From the IMG/VR virus record IMGVR_UViG_3300035191_000065: a stretch of DNA of 64,000 nucleotides; one strand, written 5' to 3'. Below the pieces are notes generated by a model, which saw nothing but the letters and a program-made list of their open reading frames with translations, had not been told where the DNA came from and did no database searches. Origin of the DNA: an uncultured virus (IMG/VR IMGVR_UViG_3300035191_000065) (lineage: Duplodnaviria > Heunggongvirae > Uroviricota > Caudoviricetes). Shown here piece by piece: positions 1 through 17,391 of the stretch; the first letter of the stretch is position 1; each line of letters begins with the position of its first letter. Both the position numbers and the translations under genes were made by a program.

Positions 1-12
1 GCTCAGGGCGAC

Positions 13-2529
13 ATGATGGAGGTCATGAACCGCTACGACTGGGAATCGGGCGACTATGACGTCTCGGTGCTCAGAGTGCAGCCACAGAACTGGCACGGGC
101 GAAACATCCAGGGCTACATCGCCTCATTTCCGCACTCGATCGACGAGGCTTTCATCCGTGAGCACTTCGGCGGTGGCGTCTACGACCTCAAAATTCGTGG
201 GCCGAATCCGAGGGCCGGAACGTCCAAGGGTTTCCTCGATGGAACCAGGGTAAAAATAAGTGGTGAACCTATCGTGAGCGCGATGGACAAACACCTCGCT
301 TTCGATGATGGCGGCATCATGCTCAGCAATCCGCAGGGTGGTCCTCCGTCTCAAGCGCAGATACGGGAGGCACAGATGGCGAGAAGAGGAGGTAGAAGAG
401 CACAAGCGGCGTGGGAAGATGAGGAAGGCGGCGGGAGGGGTAACGGCGAAGACCCTGAGATGGTTCGGATGAGCTTCGATCGTCTCGGCAAGCTGGCTGA
501 CTCTGCTTCGGAGGAGGCAAAGCAACTCCGTGAGCGCCTAATCGATGAGGCGACCAGAAAGGTAGGCGGTGAAGGTCTTTCATCAGAAGCGCTCTTGATG
601 ATCAAAGAGTCTGCTGACCGAGCGATTGAGAGTGAGAGAGCCGCCGCAGAGCGTCTTCGGAAGACAGAACAGCAGCATCGCCAGGATTTCGAGCGTATGA
701 TCGCCAAGGTCAGTAATCAGAACCACGGTATCCCGCCTGAAATGCTCGCGAGTCTGACCGAGCAGCATCGCTCCGAGATCAACGCGCTCAACGAGTCAAG
801 ACTCACTCAGCTCACTCAGCTTCAGGACCGTCACGAACAAGAGGTGAACGCGCTGAGAGAAAGATATGAGCGCGAGATCACAAACCTACAGGAGAGAAAT
901 CGAGACGAGGTCGATCGAGTACGAAGCGAGCTTCAGGGTCGTCTCGACAGAGAGCAAGAACAGTTCAAGCGAGAGATGGAGCGAGAGCGAGACAACAACC
1001 GCAAGGAGGTAGAGCGCCTGAAGGAAGAGGCTGATCGTCGTTACAACGATGCAGAGACTCAAGCCAAGCAGCGTTACGAGAAGCTGAACGACGACTGGCA
1101 ACGTCGTTTCGATCAGGAGCAAGACCGGGCTAGAGCCGCTTTGGACCAGGCACAGGAAAGAGCACGCACTGAGCGAGATACGGCTGATCGAAACAATCAG
1201 ATGCAGCTCGACCACATGAAGTCTCTTCACGAGACGCAGGTTACCCAGCTCACAGGCTCTCTTGGCAACCAGGTCGAACAAGAGCGTACTCGTGGTGAAG
1301 CTGCTATCGCGAGTCTGAAGGCCCAGCACGAAGCCGCGATTTCTCAGCTTAACACGCAGCTCGACATGTCGGTCAAGCTCCAGGAGACGAGCTATAAGGC
1401 TCAAATCGATTCCCTGCAGCAGGAGTTGGCTCGCGCCAGGGCCGATCTCGACGCGACAAAGCAGAAGGTGGCCGATCAGGGAGACTTGGTCACTCAGGCG
1501 CAGAAGCTCAAGACGGTTGGTGAATCTCTGTCTGGTGTGCTTGGTCTTGGCGGTGCTTCGGTGGGTGCTGGGGCTCTATCTGCCGACGTCGACCTGGAAC
1601 CAAAGCAGGAAGAGCCGAAGACGTGGTGGGGCAAGGTCATGCAGTTCTCCGAGTCCAACGTCGGAGAAAGCGTGTTTGAGTTCCTGAAGAACATGGCGGC
1701 TGGTGCTGCTGGTATGCATCCTGGTGCGCCCATGCCCGGCATGATGCCTGGTCTCCCGGGTCAGGTTCAGCCAAGTTATGGACCGCCACCTGGGGCTGTA
1801 TACGGAATGCCCCATCAGCCGGCGCCCGGTCCTTCCTATGGACCACCTCCTCAGCCAACCTATTCGCCGCCGCCACAAGCTCAGCCATACTCCCATCAGG
1901 TGATGGTCGATGAGGAAGAGTATGAAGAGGAGGTCATGGAGCCCGGTGGTGGTGTCGTGACAGGATCTTTTGTCGACGACGAAGTCGAGGAGGCAGGGCC
2001 GGGACCGGAACCGGCTCCTCAAATTCGCAGTCAGGTTGACTCAGAGGGGGTGGTGAGGGCGACAGTTCCACCGGCGACGTCGAGTTATTCGATGGGAACG
2101 TCTCCCGAGTCGAAAAGTCCTCAGATCACCCCAGAGGAAATGGAACGAATTCATTCGCCATCGACTCCGGAGTCGCCAAGATCTGCGCCGGCCGCTCCAG
2201 CGGCTCAGCCTCAACCAGTGGTCTCCCCTGCCCAGCCACAGCAACCTCCCATCTCGACAGAGAAGATTCCGCCAGATGTTGCAGAGCAGATGAAAGCCAT
2301 GATCTCAGGTCTCGAAGAGTCGATGACAAACGGTGTTCCGCCGAATGTTCTCGCAGGGACCATCATGCAGGTCGCTCCCCCCGAGCAGTTGCGGCCATTT
2401 GCTCAGACACCAATCCAGCAATTGGTGGCTGACATCCAGCAGGTCATCCCTGAGAGCATGCTGGCGTCCTACCAGGGTCGTAAGTACCTCTCTGCTCTTC
2501 AGGTCGAGCTGTCCAAGCTGATCGGCTAA
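13..2529 (+). CDS. Large coiled-coil protein with Pro/Gln-rich C-terminal region, function unknown
   Basis: 838-aa ORF; long E/R/Q heptad-rich segment, then PG/YGPPP low-complexity region. Start lies at the window edge. Confidence 0.8.
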   Translation: MMEVMNRYDWESGDYDVSVLRVQPQNWHGRNIQGYIASFPHSIDEAFIREHFGGGVYDLKIRGPNPRAGTSKGFLDGTRVKISGEPIVSAMDKHLAFDDGGIMLSNPQGGPPSQAQIREAQMARRGGRRAQAAWEDEEGGGRGNGEDPEMVRMSFDRLGKLADSASEEAKQLRERLIDEATRKVGGEGLSSEALLMIKESADRAIESERAAAERLRKTEQQHRQDFERMIAKVSNQNHGIPPEMLASLTEQHRSEINALNESRLTQLTQLQDRHEQEVNALRERYEREITNLQERNRDEVDRVRSELQGRLDREQEQFKREMERERDNNRKEVERLKEEADRRYNDAETQAKQRYEKLNDDWQRRFDQEQDRARAALDQAQERARTERDTADRNNQMQLDHMKSLHETQVTQLTGSLGNQVEQERTRGEAAIASLKAQHEAAISQLNTQLDMSVKLQETSYKAQIDSLQQELARARADLDATKQKVADQGDLVTQAQKLKTVGESLSGVLGLGGASVGAGALSADVDLEPKQEEPKTWWGKVMQFSESNVGESVFEFLKNMAAGAAGMHPGAPMPGMMPGLPGQVQPSYGPPPGAVYGMPHQPAPGPSYGPPPQPTYSPPPQAQPYSHQVMVDEEEYEEEVMEPGGGVVTGSFVDDEVEEAGPGPEPAPQIRSQVDSEGVVRATVPPATSSYSMGTSPESKSPQITPEEMERIHSPSTPESPRSAPAAPAAQPQPVVSPAQPQQPPISTEKIPPDVAEQMKAMISGLEESMTNGVPPNVLAGTIMQVAPPEQLRPFAQTPIQQLVADIQQVIPESMLASYQGRKYLSALQVELSKLIG

Positions 2530-2556: not shown

Positions 2557-2586
2557 TTGACATTTAAACTTAATATGATGTACTTC
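2557..2586 (+). promoter_or_regulatory. Candidate sigma70-type promoter for the structural block
   Basis: TTGACA at 2557-2562 in an AT-rich intergenic gap; -10 is weak (TACTTC at 2581). Palindrome CATCCTCAAGACG lies directly upstream. Confidence 0.5.
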
Positions 2587-2633: not shown

Positions 2634-3269
2634 TTGGCAGGTATTTTTAAAGCCGGAGTGTGGCCGGTGGCCGGAAACCAGACCGTAAATGTGATGAAAT
2701 ACCGCGGAACTCCGCAAACAGTGCGTGAGATGTTCCGCATTGCTGACGGTGAGCGCGGTCAGAAGTCGTTCGCTCTTCGTGAGCGAGTCGAAGATATCAT
2801 TCGATACGTTCGTCCCCGAGATTACTGGAGCGAAATCCTTGCGGTTTACTACTGGACATGTGGCCCGCAGTTCCGGTACACGCGAGACCCTCGAAAGGTC
2901 GAGCAGGTCAAGGATCCTCTGCGAATCTTGTGGGAGATCGACAACTACGGCTCGACGCTCATCGACTGCGATGAGTTTGCTACGTTCTTGAGAGCCTCAA
3001 TTGGTTCAATCGGTGGGAGAAGTCGAATAGTCACCGTCGGATTTCGTCCGACGAACGGTAAATCGCCGAATCCAAGGCTGTTTGAGGACCCCGCCTTTCG
3101 TCTGATGTCATCACCGCATCCAAGGCTTCCTGGACCATTCACTCATGTCTTCGCTCAGGCGGCGAAGGGGAGTGGTGGTTGGGTGACAGTCGACCCGGTC
3201 GCTGGACCTCGAACCCCGCGGATGCATCAGCGAGTCAAGCAATACAGGATCTATGAGTCAAGCGACTGA
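2634..3269 (+). CDS. Transglutaminase-like (papain-fold) cysteine protease candidate
   Basis: Motifs in catalytic order: IDCDE (Cys), FTHVF (His), WVTVDP (Asp). TTG start uncertain. Confidence 0.7.
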   Translation: MAGIFKAGVWPVAGNQTVNVMKYRGTPQTVREMFRIADGERGQKSFALRERVEDIIRYVRPRDYWSEILAVYYWTCGPQFRYTRDPRKVEQVKDPLRILWEIDNYGSTLIDCDEFATFLRASIGSIGGRSRIVTVGFRPTNGKSPNPRLFEDPAFRLMSSPHPRLPGPFTHVFAQAAKGSGGWVTVDPVAGPRTPRMHQRVKQYRIYESSD

Positions 3270-3286: not shown

Positions 3287-4177
3287 ATGAGCGAGTGGGA
3301 TGCTCTTGATGAAGACATGACAAGCTACGGAGCAAACGGAAATGGAAACGATGACGATGTTGAATACGTCGGCACCGTCGAAGAAGATGTGAGTGCTGCT
3401 CCGCATGTTCAGGCACCCCGCCGCCCCGTTCGCCGCGTTGTGCCTCAGCGGCCGAGGTTTCAACAGGCTGCGACTCTTGGTGCGGAATCAGCTCCAATTC
3501 GAAGGGGCAATGGAGATAAAGGTGGGCAGATGTACTACTACGACATGGAGAATGGCGCCCGCTTCGCCATGAACGGTGAAGCAGCGCAAAGAGCCGCTGG
3601 TTCTCCAGTGGTGAATGTTGGTGGCCGAGCTGCTCGAAGGGTGCAGCCTGGCACTTACGTCACCTATGGACCTTCGATCGGCCCGAGCGGATTGTATGGC
3701 GGCGGCATGGGCAACGACGGCGACATGGGGATGGGTACCAACGGATCACGAGCTGGCGGAATCATGGAAGGCATCGGCTCTATCCTGGCTCCGCTCTCTG
3801 AGCTGGGAGTCGGTATCGCCACAACGGTCACGGGTCATCAGCGAGCGGAGGCCGAGATGGAGCTGGAAGCTCAGCTTCGTCGCGAGCAAATGGAAGCTGA
3901 GTCTGAGGCTCGTGACATGGCGTTCCAGACCGAGCAGCTCGCCCGTCAGCAGGAGCATGAGCTTCGTCTTGAGGAGCTGTCGCAGCGTGCAGAAGAGCTT
4001 CGGGCTCTTCGTGAGACGGAAGCTGCTGTGTCGTCTGCGCCGTCAACGACAGCGGCTCCGATCGTCACTCAGCAGGGTACCTCACCGGTCGTTTGGATTT
4101 TTCTCGCGCTCGTTCTCGCAGGCGGCGTCGGTGGCGTGTTCTGGTACATGTCCAAGAAGAAAGACGAAGAGGAGTAG
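3287..4177 (+). CDS. Membrane-anchored putative virion protein (GMG motif, coiled coil, C-terminal TM)
   Basis: GGAGG RBS; internal GMGTNG; C-terminal hydrophobic helix followed by KKKDEEE. Confidence 0.75.
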   Translation: MSEWDALDEDMTSYGANGNGNDDDVEYVGTVEEDVSAAPHVQAPRRPVRRVVPQRPRFQQAATLGAESAPIRRGNGDKGGQMYYYDMENGARFAMNGEAAQRAAGSPVVNVGGRAARRVQPGTYVTYGPSIGPSGLYGGGMGNDGDMGMGTNGSRAGGIMEGIGSILAPLSELGVGIATTVTGHQRAEAEMELEAQLRREQMEAESEARDMAFQTEQLARQQEHELRLEELSQRAEELRALRETEAAVSSAPSTTAAPIVTQQGTSPVVWIFLALVLAGGVGGVFWYMSKKKDEEE

Positions 4178-4186: not shown

Positions 4187-4678
4187 ATGAGCTTCGTCTT
4201 CGTAGGTGCCCCTGATGGGGGCGATGTCGGCATGGGAACGACGGCCGGAGACTACGCCAGTGCAGCCGCTGGCGCTGTTGGAAGTACGGTCGGTGCGATC
4301 TTTGGTGCGATCAACACCATCGACCAGATTCGTTACCAGCAGGGTGCCTACGCTGAGGGGCGCGAATCCGGAATGTCGTCGATGCTCGACGACATGGCAA
4401 GGCAACAGTATTTCGATGAAAGAGCGAACGCTGAGCGTGATGCTATCAACGAGGCTCGTAGAGGCATCGCGAGTGAGTATTCCGCACAGGAGCGGGAACT
4501 TGCTGAAGAGATCAGCCGTGAACAAGCGGCTGCGTTCGCTCGCGAGGCTCAAGCCCGCGTCGGTGGAACATTTGGAGGGAGTCGGCCTACTCCCATGTGG
4601 GTCTGGGCTGTCGTTGGAGTCGGAGTGACAGGGGTTGTCATCGGCGGCGTGTGGCTCGTCTCCAAGATGAAGGATTAA
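4187..4678 (+). CDS. Membrane-anchored putative virion protein
   Basis: N-terminal GMGT motif, helical middle, C-terminal TM. Confidence 0.75.
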   Translation: MSFVFVGAPDGGDVGMGTTAGDYASAAAGAVGSTVGAIFGAINTIDQIRYQQGAYAEGRESGMSSMLDDMARQQYFDERANAERDAINEARRGIASEYSAQERELAEEISREQAAAFAREAQARVGGTFGGSRPTPMWVWAVVGVGVTGVVIGGVWLVSKMKD

Positions 4679-4686
4679 GGTAAACG

Positions 4687-5316
4687 ATGTCCTATCATTA
4701 CTACGGTCCTGGCTTGGGTTCTCTCGGATTTTCGGACCCAAGAGGAGCTTGTACGCAGGGCTCTGTGACGGGTCAGAAACGTTGTTTCAGGCCGAGAGAG
4801 GCATCCACCGCCAGTCGAATGAGCTGTGTTGAGATACCCAGTGACACTGGTCAGGTCGGAAGGCTGAACGAGGCGTGTCAGCATTACTGCTGTCCATCCA
4901 CTCCTACTCTTATCCTCGGCGAAGCTGTCAGAGAAGAAGAAGAGTCGACCGTAGCGGCTCAGCCAGGGGCTGCCCCATCTCAGGATACAGGGGGTATCGT
5001 CGATTGGGTCAAGGGAGCCATTGGTATGCCTACAGGTCAACAGGTTCCAGCGGCCCCTATGCCAGGTGGCACAGGCGCAAACAAGCCCACTGCCCAGGGC
5101 TTTGCGACGTATGCACAGGAAGCGGCTCTTCGTACAGGCGCAGCCGCCGAGAACGAGGTTCTCCCTATTGAGGAGACTCCTCCGGACTCTGCCGGCCAGC
5201 AAGCTGCCGAAGAACAGACCTGGATAGAGCGATACCAGACCCATATCACACTGGCCTCGACGGCGATCGGCCTCGGAACCTTCCTTGTTTGGCTGGTCAT
5301 AAGGAAGAAAGACTAG
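4687..5316 (+). CDS. GLG-leader protein with Cys-rich CCP module and C-terminal TM
   Basis: MSYHYYGPGLGSLG leader; six Cys ending in HYCCPS; TM then RKKD. Confidence 0.75.
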   Translation: MSYHYYGPGLGSLGFSDPRGACTQGSVTGQKRCFRPREASTASRMSCVEIPSDTGQVGRLNEACQHYCCPSTPTLILGEAVREEEESTVAAQPGAAPSQDTGGIVDWVKGAIGMPTGQQVPAAPMPGGTGANKPTAQGFATYAQEAALRTGAAAENEVLPIEETPPDSAGQQAAEEQTWIERYQTHITLASTAIGLGTFLVWLVIRKKD

Positions 5317-5324
5317 GTAGAATC

Positions 5325-5987
5325 ATGACTTACGAATATATGACCGGGATGGGGACCGTCGAGGAGGCGGAAAGACTCTCTGCGCAGGCACGCACCGCTT
5401 ACGATTCAGGGAACTACTCAGAAGCAATTCGTCTTCTGGAACAAGCGGAGCGCGAAGACCCGGCAACTCCTCAGAACTACGCTCTACGTCGAGCACAGGC
5501 TCTTGCTCGTGCGAATCGATGTGATGAGGCGCGTCGCGTTCTCGATGGATTTCGTTCTCGATTTTCCAGCGACCCAGCTTTTTCACAATATGAGCGCTTG
5601 GTAGGGGCTTCGTGCCCTACTACTGGTGCTCCGGCAACAGCAGCAGGTGAACCGGCCCCAACAGCAGAAAAGCAGACGTGGTGGCCTACCGACGTCGGTG
5701 CGATGTTTGAGACGGTCGCAACGAAACTTGGTATCGGGGGTCAGGCAAATCAAGAGGCACAGGGCGTTGCCATGGAAACCGCGGCCAACCTCACAGGTCA
5801 GGTGATGGTTCCCGGCGCGGGTGCTGCAGCAGCCACGGAAACCCTTCCTCCTCCTGGTCCTTCGCCCGCTGCTGTAACAGCTCCTATGCCTTCTGTCGGG
5901 TCAACGATCGCTCCTTACATCGTCGGAGGGCTGCTTGTCTTCGGTTTCGCTGGTGTCGGTATTTGGTTGCTCGTGAGGAAAAAGTAG
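5325..5987 (+). CDS. GMG-leader protein with TPR-like repeats and C-terminal TM
   Basis: Start reassigned to MTYEYMTGMG; AYDSGNYSEAIRLLEQA is TPR-like; Ala/Pro/Thr linker; TM then RKK. Confidence 0.75.
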   Translation: MTYEYMTGMGTVEEAERLSAQARTAYDSGNYSEAIRLLEQAEREDPATPQNYALRRAQALARANRCDEARRVLDGFRSRFSSDPAFSQYERLVGASCPTTGAPATAAGEPAPTAEKQTWWPTDVGAMFETVATKLGIGGQANQEAQGVAMETAANLTGQVMVPGAGAAAATETLPPPGPSPAAVTAPMPSVGSTIAPYIVGGLLVFGFAGVGIWLLVRKK

Positions 5988-6521
5988 ATGTCTTACGAGT
6001 ATATGACTGGCCTGGGGACGAACGGCGACATCGATAACCCAGACATGGATTTCGCGACGCCAGAGGATCTGGTGTCCGCTGGAATGGGTCTTCGTCCGAT
6101 GCCGCCAGAGCTTCAGGGTGGTAGGGAGTCTTCGGGCGATACAAGCATCTACTCGGGGATCGCTAATCTGTTCTCCGGGCTCGCTCAGCAGTTTGCGAGC
6201 AATACGGCGACTGAGGTTACGGGGTCTTCAACTGGAGCGCCCGGTGGAAAGCAGCCAAGCGGCGCAACGCCGACTGGGGCAGCTCCAGCGCCCAGCGGAA
6301 AGGGCGCTCCAACGACGACAACTCCTGCACCAGCTCAGTCAACGACAGCTTCAGCGGATGAGGGAGAGGCGGCGTCAGAAGAAACGCCTTCTCCAACATC
6401 GACTGCGGCTCCCCTCGTGGTTCAGCCACAGAGGTCATATGTCCCCTACATCGTGATAGGGGGCTTGGTGCTGACGTTCGGGATCGTTGGCATTTGGCTG
6501 CTGACTCGGAAAAAGGATTAG
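5988..6521 (+). CDS. GLG-leader protein with Ser/Thr/Pro/Ala-rich stalk and C-terminal TM
   Basis: MSYEYMTGLGTNG leader; TM is similar to that of the preceding gene (PYIV.GGL). Confidence 0.75.
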   Translation: MSYEYMTGLGTNGDIDNPDMDFATPEDLVSAGMGLRPMPPELQGGRESSGDTSIYSGIANLFSGLAQQFASNTATEVTGSSTGAPGGKQPSGATPTGAAPAPSGKGAPTTTTPAPAQSTTASADEGEAASEETPSPTSTAAPLVVQPQRSYVPYIVIGGLVLTFGIVGIWLLTRKKD

Positions 6522-7651: not shown

Positions 7652-8515
7652 ATGTACGAGTACGTAAGAAGGCCGGGCGGTTTGGGCGCTTCGAAGAACA
7701 GCCACGAATACGTTCCCGTCCCGGGCGGTTTGGGCTGGATGCCCACCTTTACCTCATTTGGTCAGACATTCCGTGGCCCTTCGTGTCAAACGCCGGATGG
7801 CTCAGGGACCGTGACCTGTGGTCGAACAGCAGAAAGCACCTTCATGGCCAATGAAGGCTGCAGGCCCATGAACCTCGACACCGAACTGGGCGGTTCCACT
7901 CGAATTTGCTTCACGGGTACAGGTCCAACGACGGAGGCAAACGCTGGCTTGGTCTGGTGTTGTCCTCCTGGTCGCCCCCGTGCAACGCCGGGTGAGGGCG
8001 CGGCTGTGACTCAGGCTGGAGCGTCCCGTGCTGACATTCGTGAGCTTCAGCAGTGGCTGGAGTCCATCAACTGTTCTGTCGGCACACACGGCATCGATGG
8101 AATCTGGGGTCCTGATACAGCGACGGCCGTTCGGTGTGCTGAGGCTCAGGGGAACGCGACTGTGATCGCTGCGAACTTCCCCTTCGTCGCCACGATGAGG
8201 CAGACTCCAACCGGACAGGCGCGTCCTGCAGACTTCGTTTTTCAGCCTCCTGTTGTGGGAACAAAGACACCGGAGCAGGTTGCTGCGGGCCAGACCATCA
8301 TCCCTGGTGGTCGTGTGGCAAGCACTGGAACCACACCGGGGACAACACCGGTCACTCAGGCCGGAATGGTCGCGGGTGGCATGCCTTGGTGGGGCTGGAT
8401 GGGCCTGCTCGGAGGCGTCGGCGCTCTCGCGCTGGGTGGTCTTTACCTTTACCGAAAGGGAGAGGAAGAAGACGTGCTGCGTGAAGAGTCTGAGCTGGCC
8501 GCGCTCGGATACTAA
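7652..8515 (+). CDS. GLG-leader protein: CCPP module, peptidoglycan-binding (PG_binding_1-like) domain, TM
   Basis: MYEYVRRPGGLG; VWCCPPG; IRELQQWL...GIDGIWGPDTATAV; TM and acidic tail. Confidence 0.8.
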   Translation: MYEYVRRPGGLGASKNSHEYVPVPGGLGWMPTFTSFGQTFRGPSCQTPDGSGTVTCGRTAESTFMANEGCRPMNLDTELGGSTRICFTGTGPTTEANAGLVWCCPPGRPRATPGEGAAVTQAGASRADIRELQQWLESINCSVGTHGIDGIWGPDTATAVRCAEAQGNATVIAANFPFVATMRQTPTGQARPADFVFQPPVVGTKTPEQVAAGQTIIPGGRVASTGTTPGTTPVTQAGMVAGGMPWWGWMGLLGGVGALALGGLYLYRKGEEEDVLREESELAALGY

Positions 8516-8537
8516 GGGCAAAGAGTAGGAGCTAAAA

Positions 8538-9335
8538 ATGTACGAATATGTAAGGAAGCCCGGTGGTTTGGGCATGGGAGCGCTCGGGTGGTCGTACAAC
8601 TGGGAAATCCCGATGAGTCGGGAAATCGCTCGGAGCATCCCTTGTGAGGGAGGTGGCACGATTGCCTGTGCTACTACCGGCGAACAGGGCTTCATGGTGA
8701 GCCAGGGGTGCCAGGTCACGTATCCTGAGCAGGGAGGTGGCACCGGGGCTTGCCGAACATCATCGGGAGCTTCTGGAAACACCTGGTGCTGTCCGCCAGG
8801 GCGCCCTGGTGCCGGAGAGCCCAGCACGATCGTCCAGCAGGCAGTGAGCCGTGATCAGATTCGTCAGATGCAGAACTGGCTTGTCCAGCAAGGCTGTTCT
8901 GTCGGCTCAACGGGTGCTGATGGTGTCTGGGGGCCGAACACGCGCAGTGGTGTCGAATGCGCAGTGGGCCAGACGAGCTGGACCAACGTGGCCGGGCGCT
9001 TCCCGTTCCTCAGCACACTGATGGCCGATCCTTCCGGAGCGGCTCGTCCATCCGGAATGATCTTTGACCCCGGTGCGACCGGGTCGAAGACCCCTGAACA
9101 GGGCGGCGTTCGCTATGCAAGCGGAGGAGCTGCAGCAACCACCACGACAGGCGCCCCGGGTGCTCCTGCTATTCAGCAGGCTGGCATCGTTCCTGGCGGA
9201 ATGCCTTGGTGGGGCTGGCTCGCCATTCTCGGAGGCGTTGGTCTTCTCGCAGCCGGCGGATACTACCTCTACAAGAGGGGCGAGGAAGAAGAAGCCGAGC
9301 TGGAAGAGGCTGAGCTGGCCGCGCTCGGATATTAG
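8538..9335 (+). CDS. Paralog of the preceding gene (CCPP, PG-binding, TM)
   Basis: MYEYVRKPGGLG; TWCCPPG; GADGVWGPNT; same ELAALGY C-terminus. Confidence 0.8.
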   Translation: MYEYVRKPGGLGMGALGWSYNWEIPMSREIARSIPCEGGGTIACATTGEQGFMVSQGCQVTYPEQGGGTGACRTSSGASGNTWCCPPGRPGAGEPSTIVQQAVSRDQIRQMQNWLVQQGCSVGSTGADGVWGPNTRSGVECAVGQTSWTNVAGRFPFLSTLMADPSGAARPSGMIFDPGATGSKTPEQGGVRYASGGAAATTTTGAPGAPAIQQAGIVPGGMPWWGWLAILGGVGLLAAGGYYLYKRGEEEEAELEEAELAALGY

Positions 9336-9344
9336 GAGGTCGTC

Positions 9345-9764
9345 ATGTACGAGTACACCACCAGAAGTCGTCGGGGCATGATGGGCCTGGGAACAGAGCC
9401 TGAGGAGCAGGTTGGTTCCATTCAGAGTGCCATACTCGAAAACGGCTGTTCTCTTCCGCGGTTTGGCCGCGACAGCCGATGGGGCTCAGAGACCGAGGCG
9501 GGTACTCGTTGTCTCGCGGAGCGCCGCGGTTGGGATTTCGTTCTCCAGAGCTGGCCCTGGGTCGCTCAGAGGATGACAATTCCCCAACAACAGGGAGTGG
9601 CGCAGCAGGTCGCCTCTGTCGTTCCCCGAGTCACAGGAAACGGTCAGACTCCAGCATGGCTTCCATGGGCCGCTGCCGGTGTCGGTCTCGTCGGCATCAT
9701 CATGATCGGCTCCTATGTCACAGCAAAAATGGAAGAGGAGCGAGAAAGAAGAGGTCAATTCTGA
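9345..9764 (+). CDS. GLG-leader protein: PG-binding-like domain and TM
   Basis: MYEYTTR...GLGT; IQSAILENGCSLPRFGRDSRWGSET; AGGAGG RBS. Confidence 0.75.
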   Translation: MYEYTTRSRRGMMGLGTEPEEQVGSIQSAILENGCSLPRFGRDSRWGSETEAGTRCLAERRGWDFVLQSWPWVAQRMTIPQQQGVAQQVASVVPRVTGNGQTPAWLPWAAAGVGLVGIIMIGSYVTAKMEEERERRGQF

Positions 9765-10246
9765 TGTATACAAGAGCCCGTCAAGGCCTTGGCTGGACCG
9801 GTGGTTTTACCGTTCCAGGTCAGGAACATCGTTTCTCTCAGCAAACGTGCTCAGGTCCAGCCGCGAACCCAATGGACCCGAGCAGTGACCTCATCTGTGG
9901 TCGCTCCGCCGAGATTCAATACTTGCAGCGCATCGGATGTAGAACAGTTGGCTTCCAAGGAAACCACCACTGCTATACCGATGAGGGTAACCAGGGAGTT
10001 TTCTACTGCTGCCCGCCTGGAGTCCTCGACGCTGAGCTGGCCCGAGCAGCAGCGATTCCTGCACCCAGAGATGGACAGCAGGTGGCGGCGTCCATGATCC
10101 CTGCTGCTGCAACCGCAGCGGGCGCCGGTATCGGCATGGGCATCGGAACCGTCCTAGTGACGGTGGGTGTCATGGGTATCGGTGGATATCTCGTCTGGCG
10201 ATGGGCGAAGAATCGCCAGGAGGAGATGGAGCTGGAGGGATACTGA
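9764..10246 (+). CDS. GLG-leader protein: CCPP module and TM
   Basis: TGATG-coupled start MYTRARQGLGW; FYCCPPG; TM and acidic tail. Confidence 0.75.
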   Translation: MYTRARQGLGWTGGFTVPGQEHRFSQQTCSGPAANPMDPSSDLICGRSAEIQYLQRIGCRTVGFQGNHHCYTDEGNQGVFYCCPPGVLDAELARAAAIPAPRDGQQVAASMIPAAATAAGAGIGMGIGTVLVTVGVMGIGGYLVWRWAKNRQEEMELEGY

Positions 10247-10584
10247 TGTACATCTACACGACGAAGGGTCGACAGCTCTCTCCTCTGAGCACCCTCGTTC
10301 CCTACAATCCTGCTCGACCTCTCCTTCCTCAGGGAATGGGAACGAACGGAGACCAGGTCACGCAGACGGCGTCTATGGTGACGGATCAGGCGACTCGGTT
10401 CAATTTTTGGGTAAAGGTCGCTCTTGCGATGGCGGTTGGTGCCGTCGGCTTTGCTCTTTACAACAAGCTTAGAAGTGAGCCGATGTACCCGAATATGCTG
10501 GCCCCATGGCCGGCGATTGGGCCGACGTTCGCCTATGCGGACGGTATTGGTAGAGCGTTCTCGCTCGTTCCCTTCGTTGTGTGA
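10246..10584 (+). CDS. Small GMG-motif membrane protein
   Basis: TGATG-coupled start MYIYTT; GMGTNG; one TM. Confidence 0.7.
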   Translation: MYIYTTKGRQLSPLSTLVPYNPARPLLPQGMGTNGDQVTQTASMVTDQATRFNFWVKVALAMAVGAVGFALYNKLRSEPMYPNMLAPWPAIGPTFAYADGIGRAFSLVPFVV

Positions 10585-10592
10585 GGTGTGAC

Positions 10593-11276
10593 ATGTATAT
10601 GCGGACAAGAACACGTCGGCCTTTGATGAGCCTTGGGGCACTCGGTTCCAATGGGGCATGGAGCTGGATCGGCCAATCATGCCGTGGAAGTGCCGACTTC
10701 CCGATGGCTGATGGCGAGGTCGCCTGCGTTCCTTCCGGGCAGGAGGGTCGAGCAGACAGTCGGGCTTGTGTTGGAGTGCAGGTTGGTGGTGAGCCCTATT
10801 GCGCTCAGCCAGACGCCACAGACGCTGGTGCGTACTACTGCTGCCCTCGACGTGACAAGGTGCGCGAGCTTCAGATGGCTATTCTTCGAGCAGGCTGTAG
10901 GCTGCCGACCTACGGCGCAGATGGTCTCTTCGGGTCCGAAACGCGTTCCGGGATCAACTGTTTGGCGCAGGCTGTCGGATGGGGAAGTATCGTTGGGCGA
11001 TATCCTGTTGTGCTTTCTTTGGTGGAGGTGCCGGAGGAATTTCGTCCACGGCCTGTAGCGGCAGCAGCGCCAGTCGCAACGCAACCCTCGCAGCCGATTC
11101 AGCCTACACCGGCCCGTTCTGAGTGGAACGCAACTTGGACCATTTTGGCAGTGGGTGTTGGTGGTATCGGTCTTTTCATCTTGATGCAGTACCTGATGAG
11201 CGGCCGAGGTGTCGGCGACGTGGACATTGAAGAGAGAGAGGCACGCTGGGTCGAGGCACCGACAGGCGCCTATTAA
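10593..11276 (+). CDS. Leader protein: CCP module, PG-binding domain, TM
   Basis: MYMR...SLGALGSNG; YYCCPR; VRELQMAIL...GADGLFGSET. Confidence 0.75.
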   Translation: MYMRTRTRRPLMSLGALGSNGAWSWIGQSCRGSADFPMADGEVACVPSGQEGRADSRACVGVQVGGEPYCAQPDATDAGAYYCCPRRDKVRELQMAILRAGCRLPTYGADGLFGSETRSGINCLAQAVGWGSIVGRYPVVLSLVEVPEEFRPRPVAAAAPVATQPSQPIQPTPARSEWNATWTILAVGVGGIGLFILMQYLMSGRGVGDVDIEEREARWVEAPTGAY

Positions 11277-11294
11277 AGAGGTTAAACATTTAAA

Positions 11295-12227
11295 ATGTAC
11301 GAATACCGAAGAACACCTGGTGGGCTTGGCGCTTTGGGCACAAACGGCGAAGGCCGTGATGGAGCCGATCTCCTTCGCGACGTTCAGACAGGTGTTCTCT
11401 CTCGGGGACAAGCCAGAGACGTCTGTTTTAACCTCGCCCCTGACAGGATCGGCACTGACTTTACGGAATGTCGACGACTATTTACGGCAGCAGAGGCGTG
11501 TCGAGTAGATTCAGGCGGCGCCCCATGCAGCAATTTTGAAGTTGCAACATATTGCAACGTGATGAGTCCTCCTAATATCCCCGGTGACTGTGATTACTAC
11601 TTGACCTTTGCAGAAGCTCTGAGCCCTGAAGAAATGAATCGACTTCCGGCGCCCACGGCCGAAGAAATCGTAGAGGCAGAGGGTCTTCTGACGAGATTTG
11701 CGGAGAATGTTGCTGCCGCTGGAAGAAGGATTGCTCGCACTGTTTTGCCGCCCGACCCTCAGGTAGAGGCAGTGCAGAACGCAGTCATTGCTGCTGGATG
11801 TACTCTCCCCCGCTATGGGGTCGATGGTCGATGGGGCGATGAGACCGAGGCCGGCGTCCGATGCCTTGCTGCTCGCCAGAGCTGGCAACAGGTCGTTCAG
11901 CAGTTCCCGACTGTCGCTCAGAGGATGACCGTTCCATCCGGCCCTCCTCCCGTTACGACTACACCAACGACGTTCCCGACGGGTGTCGCTACCGTAGTGA
12001 AGCCATCGTTTTCTCCGCTACCTGTGCCTCCCAGCGTCGCGCAGCAACCGCCGCGAGTTCAAACCGCGTCGATGGGGCCTTCGATTCCGACAACCGGACT
12101 TCCATCCTGGGTCCCGTGGGCTGCTGCAGGCTTTGGTCTTCTGGGGATCATCGTCCTTGGTGCCTACATGACTCGAAAGAAGGAAGAAGAGTTCGAGTTC
12201 GAGGAGGAGCGCTATGGGCGGTTTTAG
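11295..12227 (+). CDS. GLG-leader protein: Cys-rich domain, PG-binding domain, Pro/Thr stalk, TM
   Basis: MYEYRRTPGGLGALGTNG; GVDGRWGDET; TM similar to that of the 9345 gene. Confidence 0.8.
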   Translation: MYEYRRTPGGLGALGTNGEGRDGADLLRDVQTGVLSRGQARDVCFNLAPDRIGTDFTECRRLFTAAEACRVDSGGAPCSNFEVATYCNVMSPPNIPGDCDYYLTFAEALSPEEMNRLPAPTAEEIVEAEGLLTRFAENVAAAGRRIARTVLPPDPQVEAVQNAVIAAGCTLPRYGVDGRWGDETEAGVRCLAARQSWQQVVQQFPTVAQRMTVPSGPPPVTTTPTTFPTGVATVVKPSFSPLPVPPSVAQQPPRVQTASMGPSIPTTGLPSWVPWAAAGFGLLGIIVLGAYMTRKKEEEFEFEEERYGRF

Positions 12228-12651
12228 GCAGATGTACGGCCTCGGTTGGTCGGACGTCGTCGGTCATCCGATGTGTCCTGACTATCCGGGCTACGAGCAG
12301 CGCTGTTTTCGAACGACGACCGTTGATGGTCAGCCGCCCGAGCAAGATTTCGCTCGTGCTCAGGGGTGCGCTCCGATCAATCAGCCTTGCAGCACCTCAC
12401 CGGCTGGAAACCCGGGTCTCGTCTGGTGCTGTCCTCCTGGTTGGCCGCGTCCACCGGGGTCGCCTCCTCTGGAACCGGGTCAGACGCCGCCTGCGCCGCC
12501 TGCGCCACCGGGTATCGGTCGATGGTTTCAGCAGTCATCGAGCCGGTGGTGGTTCTGGCTTGGAGCACTTGGTCTCGCTGGCATCGCCTTTTTTGGCTAC
12601 AAGGAGTACGAGGCGAAGCGAGAAGAGCTGGAACTCGAAGAGGAGTTCTGA
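12214..12651 (+). CDS. GLG-leader protein: CCPP module and TM
   Basis: MYGLGW (alternative start 12232); VWCCPPG; acidic tail. Confidence 0.75.
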   Translation: MGGFRQMYGLGWSDVVGHPMCPDYPGYEQRCFRTTTVDGQPPEQDFARAQGCAPINQPCSTSPAGNPGLVWCCPPGWPRPPGSPPLEPGQTPPAPPAPPGIGRWFQQSSSRWWFWLGALGLAGIAFFGYKEYEAKREELELEEEF

Positions 12652-12654
12652 TCC

Positions 12655-13107
12655 ATGTACGAATACAACCCCAGAGGGATGGGCTGGTCGCAGGTCAATG
12701 AACCTCCAACGTTCGGTCAGATCTTCAGCGGAGAGAGGACACAGAAGCAGTGCTTGGAGTTTCCAGGGGGGAATCAATACTGTTTCGTGGAGCCGGATGA
12801 ATACCAGTTCGCTTATGACAGAGCTTGTGAGCGAATTGGGTGGCCTTGCAACACCGCGGAGAATAATGCTGGTGCCGTCTGGTGCTGTCCTCCTGGATTC
12901 CCAGACTTCCCAGTGCAGCCCGCCGAGCCAGCTCCGGTAGAGCCAGAACCGCAACCGCAGCCTCAGCCAGTGCCTACTTCTCCTCAGCCTCCAGCTTTGC
13001 CGCAGGTGGCATCTGCCTCGATGTTTGGTCCGGTCGTGGCGTTGTTGGCTCTCGGGGTCGGCGGCTGGTTTGGGTATCGGTATTTGAAGAGAGAGGGGCA
13101 CATCTGA
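12655..13107 (+). CDS. GMG-leader protein: CCPP module, PQ stalk, TM
   Basis: MYEYNPRGMGW; VWCCPPG. Confidence 0.75.
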   Translation: MYEYNPRGMGWSQVNEPPTFGQIFSGERTQKQCLEFPGGNQYCFVEPDEYQFAYDRACERIGWPCNTAENNAGAVWCCPPGFPDFPVQPAEPAPVEPEPQPQPQPVPTSPQPPALPQVASASMFGPVVALLALGVGGWFGYRYLKREGHI

Positions 13108-13760
13108 TGTACGAGTACAACAGAAGACCTGGCGGTCTCGGTGCTCTCGGCTGGTCTGTGATGAGCAGTTGGGATTTGGCCCCGCTCTTTGGTCGTCCTC
13201 AGTGTATGTGTACGACGGATGACGTAGGAAGACAGTATCCTCCGGACGAAGTTTGCTTCATGGAGGATCCACAGAACGCTGGTGAAGTTTATCCTCCAGA
13301 CCTCAACGTCGCCAACCTCTACGGCTGCGTTCAGAATATGCAGACGTTTCTCACCGGAGATGAGCCGAAGCGCTGTGAGACTGCTTCTGGTAACCCCGGT
13401 TTTTGCTTTTGCTGCCCGAGTGGAACACCGCGGGCCGATCCCGAGACTCCGGAGGCCGCTCAGATTCGTGAGGAGGAGGCACAGCTCCCTTTGCCGCCCG
13501 AGATTCCCGGTCTTCCGACGGTGGAACCTCCTACGACTACGCAGCCGCCTGTTCAGTCTCCGACGAAAGAGCTTCCTCCTGAAGGATCGACACCGACAGC
13601 GAGGATCACGACGACGCCGATCACTGGCATCGGAAAGATTCTGTCCGATCCAAAGGTTTGGGTTGCTGTAGGCATCCTGGGGACGGCGGCTTATCTCGGC
13701 AAGCGCTACTTCGACCGGAAGCGAGAAGAGCGCATGCTGTTCTCAGAGGAGATGGGCTGA
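13107..13760 (+). CDS. GLG-leader protein: CCP module, Pro/Thr stalk, TM
   Basis: TGATG-coupled start MYEYNRRPGGLGALGW; CFCCPSG. Confidence 0.75.
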   Translation: MYEYNRRPGGLGALGWSVMSSWDLAPLFGRPQCMCTTDDVGRQYPPDEVCFMEDPQNAGEVYPPDLNVANLYGCVQNMQTFLTGDEPKRCETASGNPGFCFCCPSGTPRADPETPEAAQIREEEAQLPLPPEIPGLPTVEPPTTTQPPVQSPTKELPPEGSTPTARITTTPITGIGKILSDPKVWVAVGILGTAAYLGKRYFDRKREERMLFSEEMG

Positions 13761-14434
13761 TGTACGAGTACTCGACAGGGCTCGGGCTCGTCGGCCCCGG
13801 CTGGACGGATATTTCTGGTAACCCCCCCTGCTCAGAAGTTGTTGGAGGGGGTGTCACTCGATGCTTCGAGAATACGGCAGATGCAGGGGCGTGTGCTCGT
13901 GAGGGGGGATGCGTTCCTTCTGCCAGAGGGCAGACGTGTTCGGTTGAGGGAGTGGCTGGTTCGACGTGGTGCTGTCCACCCCACTGGCCTCGTCCTTTCC
14001 TGGCATGTCCTACTCAGGCTGGTGGGCGGATAGAGCCTTCGGTAGCGACGTGTCAGTCCCATCGCGTCGACAGGAACAGCCTGACGACGTCTCGTTCACG
14101 GGTCATTTGGGATATTCAATCGCGTCTTTGCTCAATGGGTATTGATCCGGGTCCGATTGATGGTGTTGGGGAAGCAACGTCATTCGCAGCGGCTATTCGG
14201 GCATCCCAAGCGCGCGGTGGTATTCCGCAGACAGGGACCCCGGATCAAGCGACTCTCTTTCGGATGGGGTTCTCTGCGGCTGATGCTCAGAGGATGGCCG
14301 GAACTCTTGTACCGGCCGGACCAGGAGGTGGATTCGATCTTGGCATTCAGCTCCCATGGGCTCTTGTGATTGGGACCTCTGCAGCGGCCATGTTCATGCT
14401 TTACGCCGCATGGAAGTTCAAGAAGAGGTCGTGA
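13760..14434 (+). CDS. GLG-leader protein: CCPP module, PG-binding domain, TM
   Basis: TGATG-coupled start MYEYSTGLG; TWCCPPH; IQSRLCSMGIDPGPIDG...AIRASQARGGIPQTG. Confidence 0.78.
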   Translation: MYEYSTGLGLVGPGWTDISGNPPCSEVVGGGVTRCFENTADAGACAREGGCVPSARGQTCSVEGVAGSTWCCPPHWPRPFLACPTQAGGRIEPSVATCQSHRVDRNSLTTSRSRVIWDIQSRLCSMGIDPGPIDGVGEATSFAAAIRASQARGGIPQTGTPDQATLFRMGFSAADAQRMAGTLVPAGPGGGFDLGIQLPWALVIGTSAAAMFMLYAAWKFKKRS

Positions 14435-16160: not shown

Positions 16161-16502
16161 ATGAGCTACGAGTACACAACAAAAAGCTCGATGGGTGGCG
16201 CTGCTGGTGGTCAGTCTGGTGGGAGTGTCACTCTTCGTGTAGCACCGTGCGGGCAGCGTGCTCCAAACCGGGAGCTTCAGGCCGAGCTGGACGAGTGGTA
16301 TCCGGGGATTATGCCTCGTGTTGTAGGTCGTCTCGATATCAACTGTTACGTGGGCTCGACACAAAGCTATCGATTCTCTTACGCCACAAGTCCTCATAAG
16401 GCATACCGCGTTAGGATCATTGGGCACCTGCGCGACATAAAACAGGTGGAGAACTTCAAGGGCGGCACCCACAAGGTGTTTGACGTCGTTCAAAAGTCAT
16501 AA
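16161..16502 (+). CDS. YEY-leader soluble protein
   Basis: Start reassigned to MSYEYTTKSSMGG; no TM. Confidence 0.7.
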   Translation: MSYEYTTKSSMGGAAGGQSGGSVTLRVAPCGQRAPNRELQAELDEWYPGIMPRVVGRLDINCYVGSTQSYRFSYATSPHKAYRVRIIGHLRDIKQVENFKGGTHKVFDVVQKS

Positions 16503-16514
16503 AGGAGATTGGCG

Positions 16515-16868: not shown

Positions 16869-16877
16869 GAGGGGACG

Positions 16878-17381: not shown

Positions 17382-17391
17382 GGAGGAGAGC

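What the first reader, a model, noticed from the sequence alone, without database searches (positions are those of the whole stretch)
2634..3269. Transglutaminase-like Cys-His-Asp enzyme heads the GLG-leader operon: candidate maturation protease or cross-linker
Seen: DCDE, THV and VDP motifs; it is the first gene after a TTGACA promoter and immediately precedes the leader family. Established: adenovirus protease, poxvirus I7 and ASFV pS273R are cysteine proteases that mature virion proteins at Gly-containing motifs. Inference: this enzyme cuts at or ligates G(L/M)G motifs. The giant core protein also has many GMG sites in its tail.
Basis: partly seen in the sequence, partly recalled or inferred. 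Interest (0 to 1): 0.8.

Follow-up and report, generated by a model that had tools for sequence, protein, structure and literature searches.

The report
Viral transglutaminase-fold enzyme beside tagged proteins
A large uncultured bacterial virus encodes a well-conserved cysteine enzyme of the transglutaminase fold right next to some twenty membrane proteins that all start with the same short tag, which suggests, but does not prove, that the enzyme trims or handles this tag when the virus particle is built.

Summary
The ORF at 2634-3269 is real. It encodes a soluble protein of about 200 aa with the transglutaminase (papain-like) fold. Asp-Cys-Asp (C112), His171 and Asp187 are invariant in 26 aligned relatives. 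Twelve relatives carry an intein inserted exactly at that cysteine.

The window is the end of a 183-kb uncultured virus record. No terminase, portal or HK97 capsid gene was recognised in it. The closest characterised relative is gp34, a virion structural protein of the membrane-containing Salisaeta phage SSIP-1 (hhalign probability 98.9).

The gene is followed by about 17 otherwise unrelated, mostly tail-anchored proteins that begin M(S/T)YEY...G(L/M)G. The same pairing recurs in 17 related loci (56 tagged ORFs on the enzyme's strand, 1 on the other) and in 63 metagenome loci (99 against 0). Membrane-anchored relatives of the enzyme carry a G(L/M)G just after their own catalytic domain.

The TTGACA "promoter" is a lone hexamer, and the gene does not clearly head an operon.

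A tag-directed cysteine peptidase is the best reading (about 0.4). No cleavage has been shown. Cell-wall peptidase, cross-linker and other acyl-transfer roles remain open. This scan has already noted the same system on other genomes.

The parts
2634..3269 (+). ORF for the transglutaminase-fold Cys-His-Asp enzyme (211 aa from TTG; likely start GTG 2658 or 2667)
2964..2972 (+). Asp111-Cys112-Asp113 codons; C112 is the predicted nucleophile at the N-terminal end of helix 112-125
   Evidence: intein inserted at this site in 12 of 225 relatives
3144..3146 (+). His171 codon (first residue of strand 171-178)
3192..3194 (+). Asp187 codon (just after strand 182-186)
2557..2562 (+).
1..2529 (+). Upstream coiled-coil and proline-rich protein (909 aa in the full record). 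A gene of 800-890 aa holds this place in relatives.
3287..4177 (+). First gene after the enzyme: tail-anchored protein with GMG at residues 140 and 148 (..DMGMGTNG). An internal MYYY start at 3530 is possible.
4187..6521 (+). Four tagged tail-anchored genes (4187, 4687, 5325, 5988): MSFVF..GMG, MSYHY..GLG, MTYEYMTGMG, MSYEYMTGLG
   Evidence: TPR repeats in 5325
7652..14434 (+). Ten tagged genes (7652, 8538, 9345, 9764, 10246, 10593, 11295, 12655, 13107, 13760), most with a C-terminal membrane helix. 13760 has PG_binding_1 above the cut-off; 7652 and 8538 have it weakly.
16161..17601 (+). Three further tagged genes (16161 without a G[LM]G, 16878, 17392)
17825..21340 (+). Giant protein of 1171 aa: very basic N-terminal ~690 aa, a hydrophobic stretch, and an acidic repeat tail with 8 G[LM]G (..EYLEVPMSGMGAMVEEAYAGMG..)
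22369..23139 (+). Highly conserved 256-aa protein with a long N-terminal helix and a jelly-roll sandwich; candidate capsid protein
44399..45073 (+). Distant tagged gene (MSYEYSPGF..) with a CarboxypepD_reg-like domain, no membrane helix and no G[LM]G

Best explanation
The ORF encodes a soluble, catalytically competent cysteine enzyme of the transglutaminase (papain-like) fold. It is a core late gene of a lineage of large uncultured bacterial viruses distantly related to the membrane-containing phage SSIP-1.

Most likely it is a cysteine peptidase whose substrates are the virus's own tagged proteins. It would recognise the N-terminal M(S/T)YEY...G(L/M)G tag, and the G(L/M)G repeats in the tail of the giant basic protein, and cut at or next to the glycine motif during particle assembly or maturation. 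This would parallel the way adenovirus protease or the T4 prohead protease trims leaders.

Shown here: the fold, the conserved Cys-His-Asp residues, the tag family, and the conserved pairing of enzyme and tags. Inferred: that the enzyme is a peptidase rather than a transferase, that the tag is its substrate, and that the tag is cut at all.
For: Enzyme.
- D111, C112, D113, H171 and D187 are invariant in 26 of 26 sequences.
- Of 225 retrieved relatives, 201 have DCD, 7 have DCE, and 12 have an intein inserted between D and C, so the catalytic Cys is the intein's +1 residue. The remaining 5 are fragments or a frameshifted copy.
- 21 of 26 members of A1 match Pfam Transglut_core at E<=0.01.
- The AlphaFold model has pLDDT 82.6 and pTM 0.81. 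C112 sits at the N-terminal end of a helix, and H171 and D187 sit on or after neighbouring strands.
- The top structural matches are all transglutaminase-fold proteins: 3kd4 Z 13.2 (2.9 A over 144 residues), TG2 Z 9.5, 3isr Z 9.2, PNGase Z 8.6, LapG Z 8.4.

Link to the tags.
- In the window, 16 ORFs match the strict tag pattern on the + strand and none on the - strand. Synonymous codon differences in the tag show that selection acts on the protein.
- Tagged ORFs on the enzyme's strand against the other strand: 56 against 1 in the window plus 17 related loci, and 99 against 0 in 63 metagenome loci.
- The first tagged ORF starts within 700 nt of the enzyme gene in 20 of 36 loci that have at least 1.5 kb downstream.
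- The tagged proteins carry unrelated domains: TPR, PG_binding_1, CarboxypepD_reg.
- 35 longer relatives of the enzyme were analysed, many of which end in a membrane helix plus basic tail like the tagged proteins. After the catalytic domain they show 25 G[LM]G against 7.8 expected, and 11 of the 25 lie 82-93 residues after the DCD.
- SSIP-1 gp34 is annotated as a virion structural protein. It is a homologue (hhalign probability 98.9, E 1.4e-17, triad aligned) with RGMG before its membrane anchor.
- Apart from an M23 peptidase, no other peptidase family was recognised in the 109 proteins of the record scanned with Pfam.
- Transglutaminase-fold enzymes that remove leaders are known. Lasso-peptide B proteins remove the leader peptide (PMC10368454, abstract only); that they have the transglutaminase fold is recalled and rests on the search terms, not on that abstract.
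Against: - There is no evidence of cleavage: no proteomics and no N-terminal data. The SSIP-1 paper that may hold N-terminal sequences is not in the library.
- All co-occurring loci belong to one lineage with conserved gene order, so the pairing may reflect shared ancestry only.
- The window protein itself scores below the Pfam cut-off (14.7 against 23 bits, E 0.04), and Foldseek against the PDB gave no match at E<=0.001.
- The spacing between Met and G[LM]G varies from 3 to 24 residues, and the residue after the motif is not conserved across the lineage. In the near clade the motif extends to G[LM]G-TNG or G[LM]G-W[ST], which fits a docking or sorting signal as well as a cut site.
- Two tagged proteins (16161, 44399) have the MSYEY start but no G[LM]G.
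- The same fold also serves cross-linking, deamidation, N-acetyl transfer, deglycosylation and cell-wall cleavage.
Confidence: 0.4

Rival explanations
1. Virion-associated or lysis-associated cell-wall peptidase. The enzyme would cut peptide stems or cross-links of the host's peptidoglycan at entry or exit, as the phage-encoded transglutaminase-fold pseudomurein endoisopeptidases PeiP and PeiW do. Under this reading the tags are an unrelated sorting signal.
For: - PeiP (8z4f, Z 7.5, 4.0 A over 129 residues) and PeiW (8jx4, Z 7.4) are among the structural matches, and psiM2 endoisopeptidase appears in the viral library (E 0.13).
- PMC10318531 (passages read) describes family C71 as cleaving pseudomurein and as present in viruses.
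- SSIP-1 gp34 is a virion structural protein.
- Several neighbouring tagged proteins have peptidoglycan-binding domains.
- Membrane-containing phages such as PRD1 carry wall-degrading enzymes in the virion (recalled).
Against: - There is no Pfam match to C71 (PF12386) or to NlpC/P60 at E<=1.
- The enzyme has no wall-binding domain, no signal peptide and no membrane helix.
- The record already encodes an M23 peptidase and a protein with a weak Hydrolase_2-like C-terminal part (under the bar).
- This reading does not explain the G[LM]G placed just after the catalytic domain of membrane-anchored relatives.
Confidence: 0.2
2. The tag is an uncleaved sorting or assembly signal for the viral membrane or particle. 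The enzyme has a different target, either a host protein or another viral protein, and uses other transglutaminase-fold chemistry: deamidation, N-acyl transfer, deglycosylation, or removal of a C-terminal residue.
For: - Arylamine N-acetyltransferases, PNGase, protein glutaminase and vasohibin all appear among the structural matches at Z 4-8.6.
- The virus encodes at least 8 glycosyltransferase-like genes.
- Six tagged proteins end in an acidic tail closed by Tyr or Phe. This recalls the vasohibin substrate (recalled).
- The tag has conserved residues on both sides of G[LM]G in the near clade.
Against: - No sequence match to any of those families.
- Adjacency to the tagged genes is conserved, and relatives carry their own G[LM]G, which points to the tag.
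- Each of these alternative chemistries is unsupported speculation.
Confidence: 0.15
3. True transglutaminase. The enzyme would cross-link viral proteins through Gln-Lys isopeptide bonds to harden the particle or fix membrane proteins to the capsid.
For: Animal transglutaminases 2 and 3 and factor XIII are strong structural matches (Z 9.4-9.5). The triad is the same.
Against: - The tag holds no conserved Gln or Lys.
- Most bacterial members of Pfam Transglut_core that have been characterised are proteases rather than cross-linkers (recalled).
- The best match is a putative protease (3kd4, Z 13.2).
Confidence: 0.1

Closest known systems
[quoted passage not shown]
   Same: Homologous catalytic domain (hhalign probability 98.9, E 1.4e-17) with DCD, His and Asp aligned. 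It is preceded by a coiled-coil protein and followed by small proteins with C-terminal membrane helices, some of which carry G[LM]G. It is probably also the best match in the viral structure library: I1ZBG7, 304 aa like gp34, E 1.4e-7, though that identity was not verified.
   Different: gp34 has 304 aa with its own C-terminal membrane anchor and an RGMG before it; the window protein is soluble and has no such motif. SSIP-1 is 44 kb, against 183 kb here. No other SSIP-1 protein matched the record by phmmer at E<0.01. The function of gp34 is unknown; it is annotated only as 'structural protein'.
Pfam Transglut_core (PF01841) superfamily, e.g. BDI_1141 (3kd4), Cytophaga putative cysteine protease (3isr), TgpA (6g4h)
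   Same: Same fold, with Cys-His-Asp in the same order and on the same secondary-structure elements. 21 of 26 family members match the profile.
   Different: The window protein itself is below the curated cut-off. It has an insertion at about residues 139-168 with low model confidence, present only in its near clade. The closest solved structures have no known substrate.
LapG / BTLCP (MEROPS C93)
   Same: A transglutaminase-fold cysteine protease that removes an N-terminal module from a membrane- or surface-anchored protein at a small-residue motif (recalled). Structural match Z 8.4 (4.4 A over 136 residues).
   Different: No PF06035 match for the window protein; 1 of 59 relatives has a weak hit below the cut-off. 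LapG is periplasmic, calcium-dependent and cuts at a di-alanine (recalled). The window protein has no signal peptide.
Lasso-peptide leader peptidase (B / B2 protein)
   Same: A Cys-His-Asp enzyme of the transglutaminase fold whose job is to cut a short N-terminal leader (PMC10368454, abstract; fold assignment recalled and from the search listing).
   Different: No PF13471 match. No RRE/B1 or lasso cyclase partner was recognised in the window. The substrates here are whole proteins, not peptides.
Adenovirus protease and its (M/I/L)XGG-X / (M/I/L)XGX-G sites; T4 prohead protease with the capsid targeting sequence
   Same: The working model is the same: one virus-encoded protease and a short shared motif on many particle proteins. 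Motifs such as MTGLG, MTGMG and MMGLG resemble the adenoviral consensus (consensus recalled).
   Different: The fold and catalytic order differ (adenain is clan CE; recalled), so this is analogy only. No cleavage is shown here.

Membership tests
Transglutaminase-like superfamily (Pfam PF01841, papain-like fold) | Profile match to PF01841 | tested here: inconclusive
   The window protein scores E 0.04, 14.7 bits against a cut-off of 23, with residues 66-188 on profile positions 16-108 of 108. 21 of 26 aligned relatives match at E<=0.01, best 1.4e-11. 41 of 59 hand-picked representatives match at E<=1e-3.
Transglutaminase-like superfamily (Pfam PF01841, papain-like fold) | Transglutaminase core fold | tested here: met
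   AlphaFold model pLDDT 82.6. VIA-align: 3kd4 Z 13.2 (2.9 A, 144 residues), TG2 Z 9.5, 3isr Z 9.2. The 35 matches with Z>=5 are transglutaminase-fold proteins.
Transglutaminase-like superfamily (Pfam PF01841, papain-like fold) | Cys-His-Asp residues, with Cys at a helix N-terminus and His and Asp on neighbouring strands | tested here: met
   C112, H171 and D187 are invariant in 26 of 26 sequences. Helix 112-125 and strands 171-178 and 182-186.
Transglutaminase-like superfamily (Pfam PF01841, papain-like fold) | Triad geometry (S-N and N-O distances) in three dimensions | not testable with these tools
SSIP-1 gp34-like viral enzymes | Homology of the catalytic domain, with the triad aligned | tested here: met
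   hhalign probability 98.9, E 1.4e-17, 142 columns.
SSIP-1 gp34-like viral enzymes | C-terminal membrane anchor | tested here: not met
   The highest 19-residue hydropathy mean in the window protein is 0.77. gp34 and many longer relatives end in a membrane helix plus basic tail. The window protein belongs to a soluble sub-branch.
BTLCP / LapG (C93, PF06035) | Profile match to PF06035 | tested here: not met
   No hit at E<=1. One of 59 relatives (P0217) scores 23.6 bits against a cut-off of 27.
BTLCP / LapG (C93, PF06035) | Periplasmic location (signal peptide) | tested here: not met
   No hydrophobic N-terminal segment.
Pseudomurein endoisopeptidase (C71, PF12386) | Profile match and N-terminal wall-binding repeats | tested here: not met
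   No hit at E<=1. The single globular domain covers residues 24-208. Fold similarity only, Z 7.4-7.5.
Lasso-peptide B/B2 leader peptidase (PF13471) | Profile match and a neighbouring B1/RRE and lasso cyclase | tested here: not met
   No hit at E<=1. None of the 63 window proteins scanned shows such partners.
Adenain-type viral maturation proteases (clan CE) | Clan CE fold with His-Glu/Asp-Cys order | tested here: not met
   The order here is Cys-His-Asp and the fold is transglutaminase-like. No clan CE protease appears among the 50 rows shown.

The most novel reading that the evidence does not exclude
A large and widespread lineage of uncultured, probably tailless and membrane-containing bacterial viruses uses a previously undescribed maturation code. 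A short N-terminal tag, M(S/T)YEY...G(L/M)G, marks some twenty unrelated membrane and core proteins for the particle. A dedicated transglutaminase-fold cysteine peptidase is packaged with them (as gp34 is in SSIP-1) and cuts at the glycine motif. In membrane-anchored forms it would also release itself. This would be a bacterial-virus counterpart of the adenovirus protease system, built on a different protease fold.
Probability: 0.3. Interest if true: 0.8.

Novelty: new variant of a known kind. Interest (0 to 1): 0.6.

Why it matters
Maturation by a dedicated protease is well known in tailed phages, adenoviruses and giant viruses, but as far as I recall it has not been described for membrane-containing tailless bacterial viruses. 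Full-text searches found no paper that links a transglutaminase-like enzyme with double jelly-roll or Varidnaviria phages, or that discusses SSIP-1 gp34.

If the enzyme cuts the tag, it would define a new protease-substrate code. It would make the proteins of a large uncultured virus group readable, because the tag would predict virion proteins. It would also provide a new sequence-specific cysteine peptidase. The intein placed at the catalytic cysteine independently marks the site as essential.

If the enzyme is instead a wall peptidase or a cross-linker, the finding is ordinary.

Tried and rejected
- Complex prediction of the enzyme (residues 18-211, alignment A1) with the first 40 residues of 15 tagged proteins (A3) gave no verdict: score 0.01 against a mark of 0.32, and the controls were not run. 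This says nothing either way.
- tblastn of the enzyme against 50,697 phage records found no match at E<=1e-5 and only chance-level hits at E<=10. SSIP-1 gp34 is seen only by profile comparison.
- phmmer of 25 SSIP-1 late proteins against all 1,539 ORFs of the record found nothing at E<0.01.
- hhalign of the candidate capsid protein (A4) against SSIP-1 gp45 and gp46 was negative.
- BLASTP of the upstream protein against SSIP-1 ORF33 gave coiled-coil-type similarity only (E 0.022).
- A profile search of solved structures by sequence gave only weak Rad4 transglutaminase-domain hits (E 0.7-0.8).
- Foldseek against the PDB gave nothing at E<=0.001, although the list is dominated by transglutaminase-fold entries.
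- NCBIfam gave no family for the enzyme, gp34 or four neighbours.
- Pfam on 38 + 71 proteins and PHROGs on 45 proteins of the record recognised no terminase, portal, HK97 capsid protein or FtsK-type packaging ATPase. A Walker-A scan found only an AAA ATPase and one doubtful site. The virus type therefore stays inferred.
- The jelly-roll model of 22369-23139 matches capsid proteins of PBCV-1, HCIV-1, HHIV-2, STIV and P23-77 only at Z 5.6-7.9, which is under the level that the tool calls safe.
- The Atlas look-up of the 496-aa protein (24876) did not point to a capsid protein. It gave a weak cell-wall-hydrolase-like C-terminal part.
- Host assignment failed. The six genome-contig hits lie on short contigs of metagenome bins from six unrelated groups, so they are probably mis-binned viral DNA.
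- No closer relatives were found in IMG/VR.
- The idea that the shared start is a DNA-level signal (promoter or ribosome site) was rejected, because the tag is spelt with different synonymous codons.
Full report
**Observation**

The + strand ORF 2634-3269 (211 aa from TTG) is present as described. Its product holds DCDE at residues 111-114, THV at 170-172 and VDP at 186-188. Gene callers in public data start it at GTG 2658 (P0001, 203 aa, 100% identical). GTG 2667, preceded by GGAG, fits the N-termini of relatives best (inference).

The TTGACA at 2557-2562 is real, but the promoter scan finds no partner hexamer. The 18 kb scanned holds 4 promoter-like sites against 5.3 expected by chance, and none is near 2557. 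A same-strand gene ends at 2529. The gene therefore precedes the tagged genes but does not clearly head an operon.

**Where the window lies**

The window is identical (0 mismatches over 62,056 bases) to the reverse complement of the first 62 kb of an IMG/VR virus record, and it runs 1,944 bases beyond that record's end. The record has 182,770 bases and CheckV rates it 95% complete.

Pfam on 38 window proteins and 71 further proteins of the record, and PHROGs on 45 proteins, recognised the following:
- an integrase, SSB, a helicase, a PD-(D/E)XK nuclease and DNA methylases;
- an AAA ATPase and an M23 peptidase;
- two NUDIX hydrolases and many glycosyltransferases.

They recognised no terminase, portal or HK97-type capsid protein.

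The strongly conserved 256-aa protein at 22369-23139 (70 homologues) folds into a long helix plus a jelly-roll sandwich (pLDDT 77.2). Its best structural matches are capsid proteins of PBCV-1 (Z 7.9, 4.0 A over 125 residues), HCIV-1 (Z 6.5), HHIV-2 (Z 6.3), STIV and P23-77 VP17 (Z 5.6). All are below Z 8, so a tailless, membrane-containing virion is likely but not shown.

**The enzyme**

Homologues.
- 76 homologues were found at E<=1e-3 among 168 candidates.
- 522 cluster representatives were found at E<=1e-3, of which 89 are at E<=1e-10.
- Several sources name their copy a transglutaminase-like putative cysteine protease.

Conservation of the catalytic residues.
- In an alignment of 26 sequences reaching down to 35% identity, D111, C112, D113, H171 and D187 are invariant.
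- Of the 225 retrieved proteins, 201 have DCD and 7 have DCE.
- Twelve have an intein inserted exactly between D and C (..DC|intein..N|CD..), so the enzyme's cysteine is the intein's +1 residue.
- The other 5 are fragments or a frameshifted copy.
- Inteins usually sit in the most conserved sites of essential proteins (recalled). This marks the cysteine as functionally important.

Family assignment.
- The window protein alone misses the Pfam cut-off for Transglut_core (E 0.04, 14.7 against 23 bits).
- 21 of 26 aligned relatives match at E<=0.01.
- 41 of 59 representatives match at E<=1e-3. I picked these 59 from the 149 listed, favouring long ones.

Fold.
- The AlphaFold model (pLDDT 82.6, pTM 0.81) puts C112 at the N-terminal end of helix 112-125, H171 at the start of strand 171-178, and D187 just after strand 182-186. 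This is the layout of the transglutaminase core.
- VIA-align gives 3kd4 Z 13.2 (2.9 A over 144 residues), TG2 Z 9.5, 3isr Z 9.2, PNGase Z 8.6, LapG Z 8.4, PeiP Z 7.5, PeiW Z 7.4 and vasohibin Z 6.8.
- Foldseek against the PDB gave no match at E<=0.001, but its list is of the same fold.

The protein has no membrane helix (highest 19-residue hydropathy mean 0.77), no G[LMF]G, and cysteines only at residues 76 and 112.

**The closest characterised relative**

Earlier notes of this scan pointed to SSIP-1, and I tested that lead.
- SSIP-1 gp34 (304 aa, annotated 'structural protein') matches the family profile with hhalign probability 98.9 and E 1.4e-17. DCD, His and Asp are aligned.
- gp34 ends in a membrane helix and has RGMG before it.
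- The best match in the viral structure library is a 304-aa protein (I1ZBG7, E 1.4e-7). It is probably the same protein, but this was not verified.
- No other SSIP-1 protein is detectably related to the record.

The kinship between the two viruses therefore rests on this enzyme and on gene order.

**The tagged family**

In the window.
- Sixteen + strand ORFs match the strict pattern, and none on the - strand. The pattern is an ATG start, M[SATM]?[YF], and G[LMF]G within the first 28 residues.
- Counting looser forms (10246, 10593, 16161, 44399), about 17 genes between 4187 and 17601, plus 44399, begin M(S/T)YEY.
- The tag is written with different synonymous codons, so selection acts on the protein.
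- Most of these proteins end in a membrane helix followed by a charged tail.
- Their middle parts are unrelated: TPR repeats, PG_binding_1, a CarboxypepD_reg-like domain, or nothing recognisable.
- G[LM]G is enriched at the N-termini. It is also enriched in the acidic repeat tail of the 1171-aa protein, whose first ~690 residues are extremely basic (8 against 1.13 expected).

In related DNA.
- In 11 viral loci with enzyme homologues of 30-41% identity and 6 contigs of metagenome bins (35-47%), 15 of 17 loci carry at least one strictly defined tagged ORF. Together with the window, the count is 56 on the enzyme's strand against 1 on the other strand.
- In 63 metagenome loci (31-79% identity), the count is 99 against 0.
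- Of 36 loci with at least 1,500 bases downstream of the enzyme gene, 30 have a tagged ORF there. In 20 of them it starts within 700 bases.
- Eight loci missed the strict pattern. I inspected six of them (L003, L024, L052, L054/L055, L065). In each, the next gene shows a looser form such as ..YYGPGGGLASVSGLG, MNGYYKPGVGLG or MNSYYTQRAGLAA.

These counts are not independent:
- at least two metagenome loci are the same contigs as viral loci, judging by equal contig lengths;
- L038 and L041 are near-duplicates;
- all loci share gene order, with a gene of 800-890 aa, the enzyme, then the tagged genes.

**A link beyond neighbourhood**

Relatives longer than 235 aa often end in a membrane helix plus basic tail like that of the tagged proteins. 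In the 35 long relatives without an intein, the part after the catalytic domain holds 25 G[LM]G against 7.8 expected. These fall in 18 of the 35 proteins, and 11 of the 25 sites lie 82-93 residues after the DCD. That position is right where the catalytic domain ends. The enzyme thus shares both the membrane and the motif with its neighbours. This fits self-release or docking at the same motif.

**Mechanism**

The best-supported reading is a cysteine peptidase that recognises the tag and cuts at or beside G(L/M)G during assembly. I put this at about 0.4.

Precedents are lasso-peptide B proteins, which remove the leader peptide (PMC10368454, abstract; their transglutaminase fold is recalled), and LapG (recalled). 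Adenovirus protease and the T4 prohead protease are functional analogues only.

Points against:
- nothing shows cleavage;
- the distance from Met to the motif varies from 3 to 24 residues, and the residue after it is not conserved across the lineage;
- in the near clade the motif extends to G[LM]G-TNG or G[LM]G-W[ST], as a docking signal might;
- two MSYEY proteins lack G[LM]G.

Rivals are a wall peptidase like PeiP/PeiW (0.2), an uncleaved sorting tag with the enzyme acting elsewhere (0.15), and a true cross-linker (0.1). The cross-linker is weakened because the tag has no conserved Gln or Lys.

**Novelty**

Four searches returned no relevant paper:
- 'transglutaminase-like' + 'double jelly-roll' + 'phage';
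- 'transglutaminase' + 'Varidnaviria';
- 'SSIP-1' + 'gp34';
- a five-term search on transglutaminase-like, virion, bacteriophage, cysteine protease and membrane-containing.

The 2012 SSIP-1 paper is not held, and its protein tables may bear directly on the question. The enzyme is a new member of a known superfamily. The enzyme-plus-tag arrangement would be a new variant of virus maturation by a dedicated protease. This scan has described the same system before on other genomes, so this window adds one more instance. It also adds the intein observation, the count over 80 loci and the linker-motif statistic.

Noticed in passing
proteins P0098, P0099, P0102, P0105, P0106, P0110, P0111, P0122, P0128, P0150, P0196, P0206 (relatives; site corresponds to window 2964-2969): Twelve of 225 relatives of the enzyme carry an intein, some with a LAGLIDADG homing endonuclease. 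It is inserted exactly between the Asp and the catalytic Cys of the DCD motif.
   Followed up: yes
window 7652-8515, 8538-9335, 9345-9764, 9764-10246, 10593-11276, 11295-12227: Six tagged tail-anchored proteins end in a long acidic tail closed by Tyr or Phe (..LAALGY..ELEGY..RRGQF..RYGRF..PTGAY). Close relatives do the same. This may be a second shared signal, at the C-terminus.
   Followed up: no
window 17825-21340: A 1171-aa protein. Its first ~690 residues are extremely basic, with repeats such as RRYRVRKPGGGTYMRRYPTKRRK. These are followed by a hydrophobic stretch, NGNGLV repeats and an acidic tail of EYLEVPMSGMG repeats. It is a possible DNA-condensing core protein.
   Followed up: partly
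window 37357-63995: A long block of sugar-modifying genes: at least 8 glycosyltransferase-like proteins, a pyruvyl transferase fused to a methyltransferase, a radical SAM protein, a GDSL lipase and a weak sulfotransferase-like protein. This is unusual in size for a bacterial virus.
   Followed up: no
window 22369-23139: A very conserved 256-aa protein (60-70% identical across many contigs) with a predicted long N-terminal helix and a jelly-roll. It weakly resembles capsid proteins of membrane-containing viruses (Z up to 7.9).
   Followed up: partly
L019:589-11869 and L018:14129-15730 (record G001, outside the window): Four paralogous large proteins (655, 1617, 1460 and 534 aa) start with the same MSNIF(V/I)TDI(I/V)G.. 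N-terminus. They are possibly host-recognition spikes or fibres.
   Followed up: no
L017:2383-4143 (record G001, outside the window): A 587-aa protein with a Cas12f1-like TNB domain and transposase PHROG hits, i.e. a TnpB-like gene inside the virus record.
   Followed up: no
window 33884-34845: Two adjacent NUDIX hydrolase genes.
   Followed up: no
window 42406-43650: A 414-aa protein with several tandem helix-turn-helix motifs that match dozens of HTH families.
   Followed up: no
window 62057-64000: The window runs 1,944 bases beyond the end of the nearest held virus record, so that record is slightly shorter than the assembly the window came from.
   Followed up: partly
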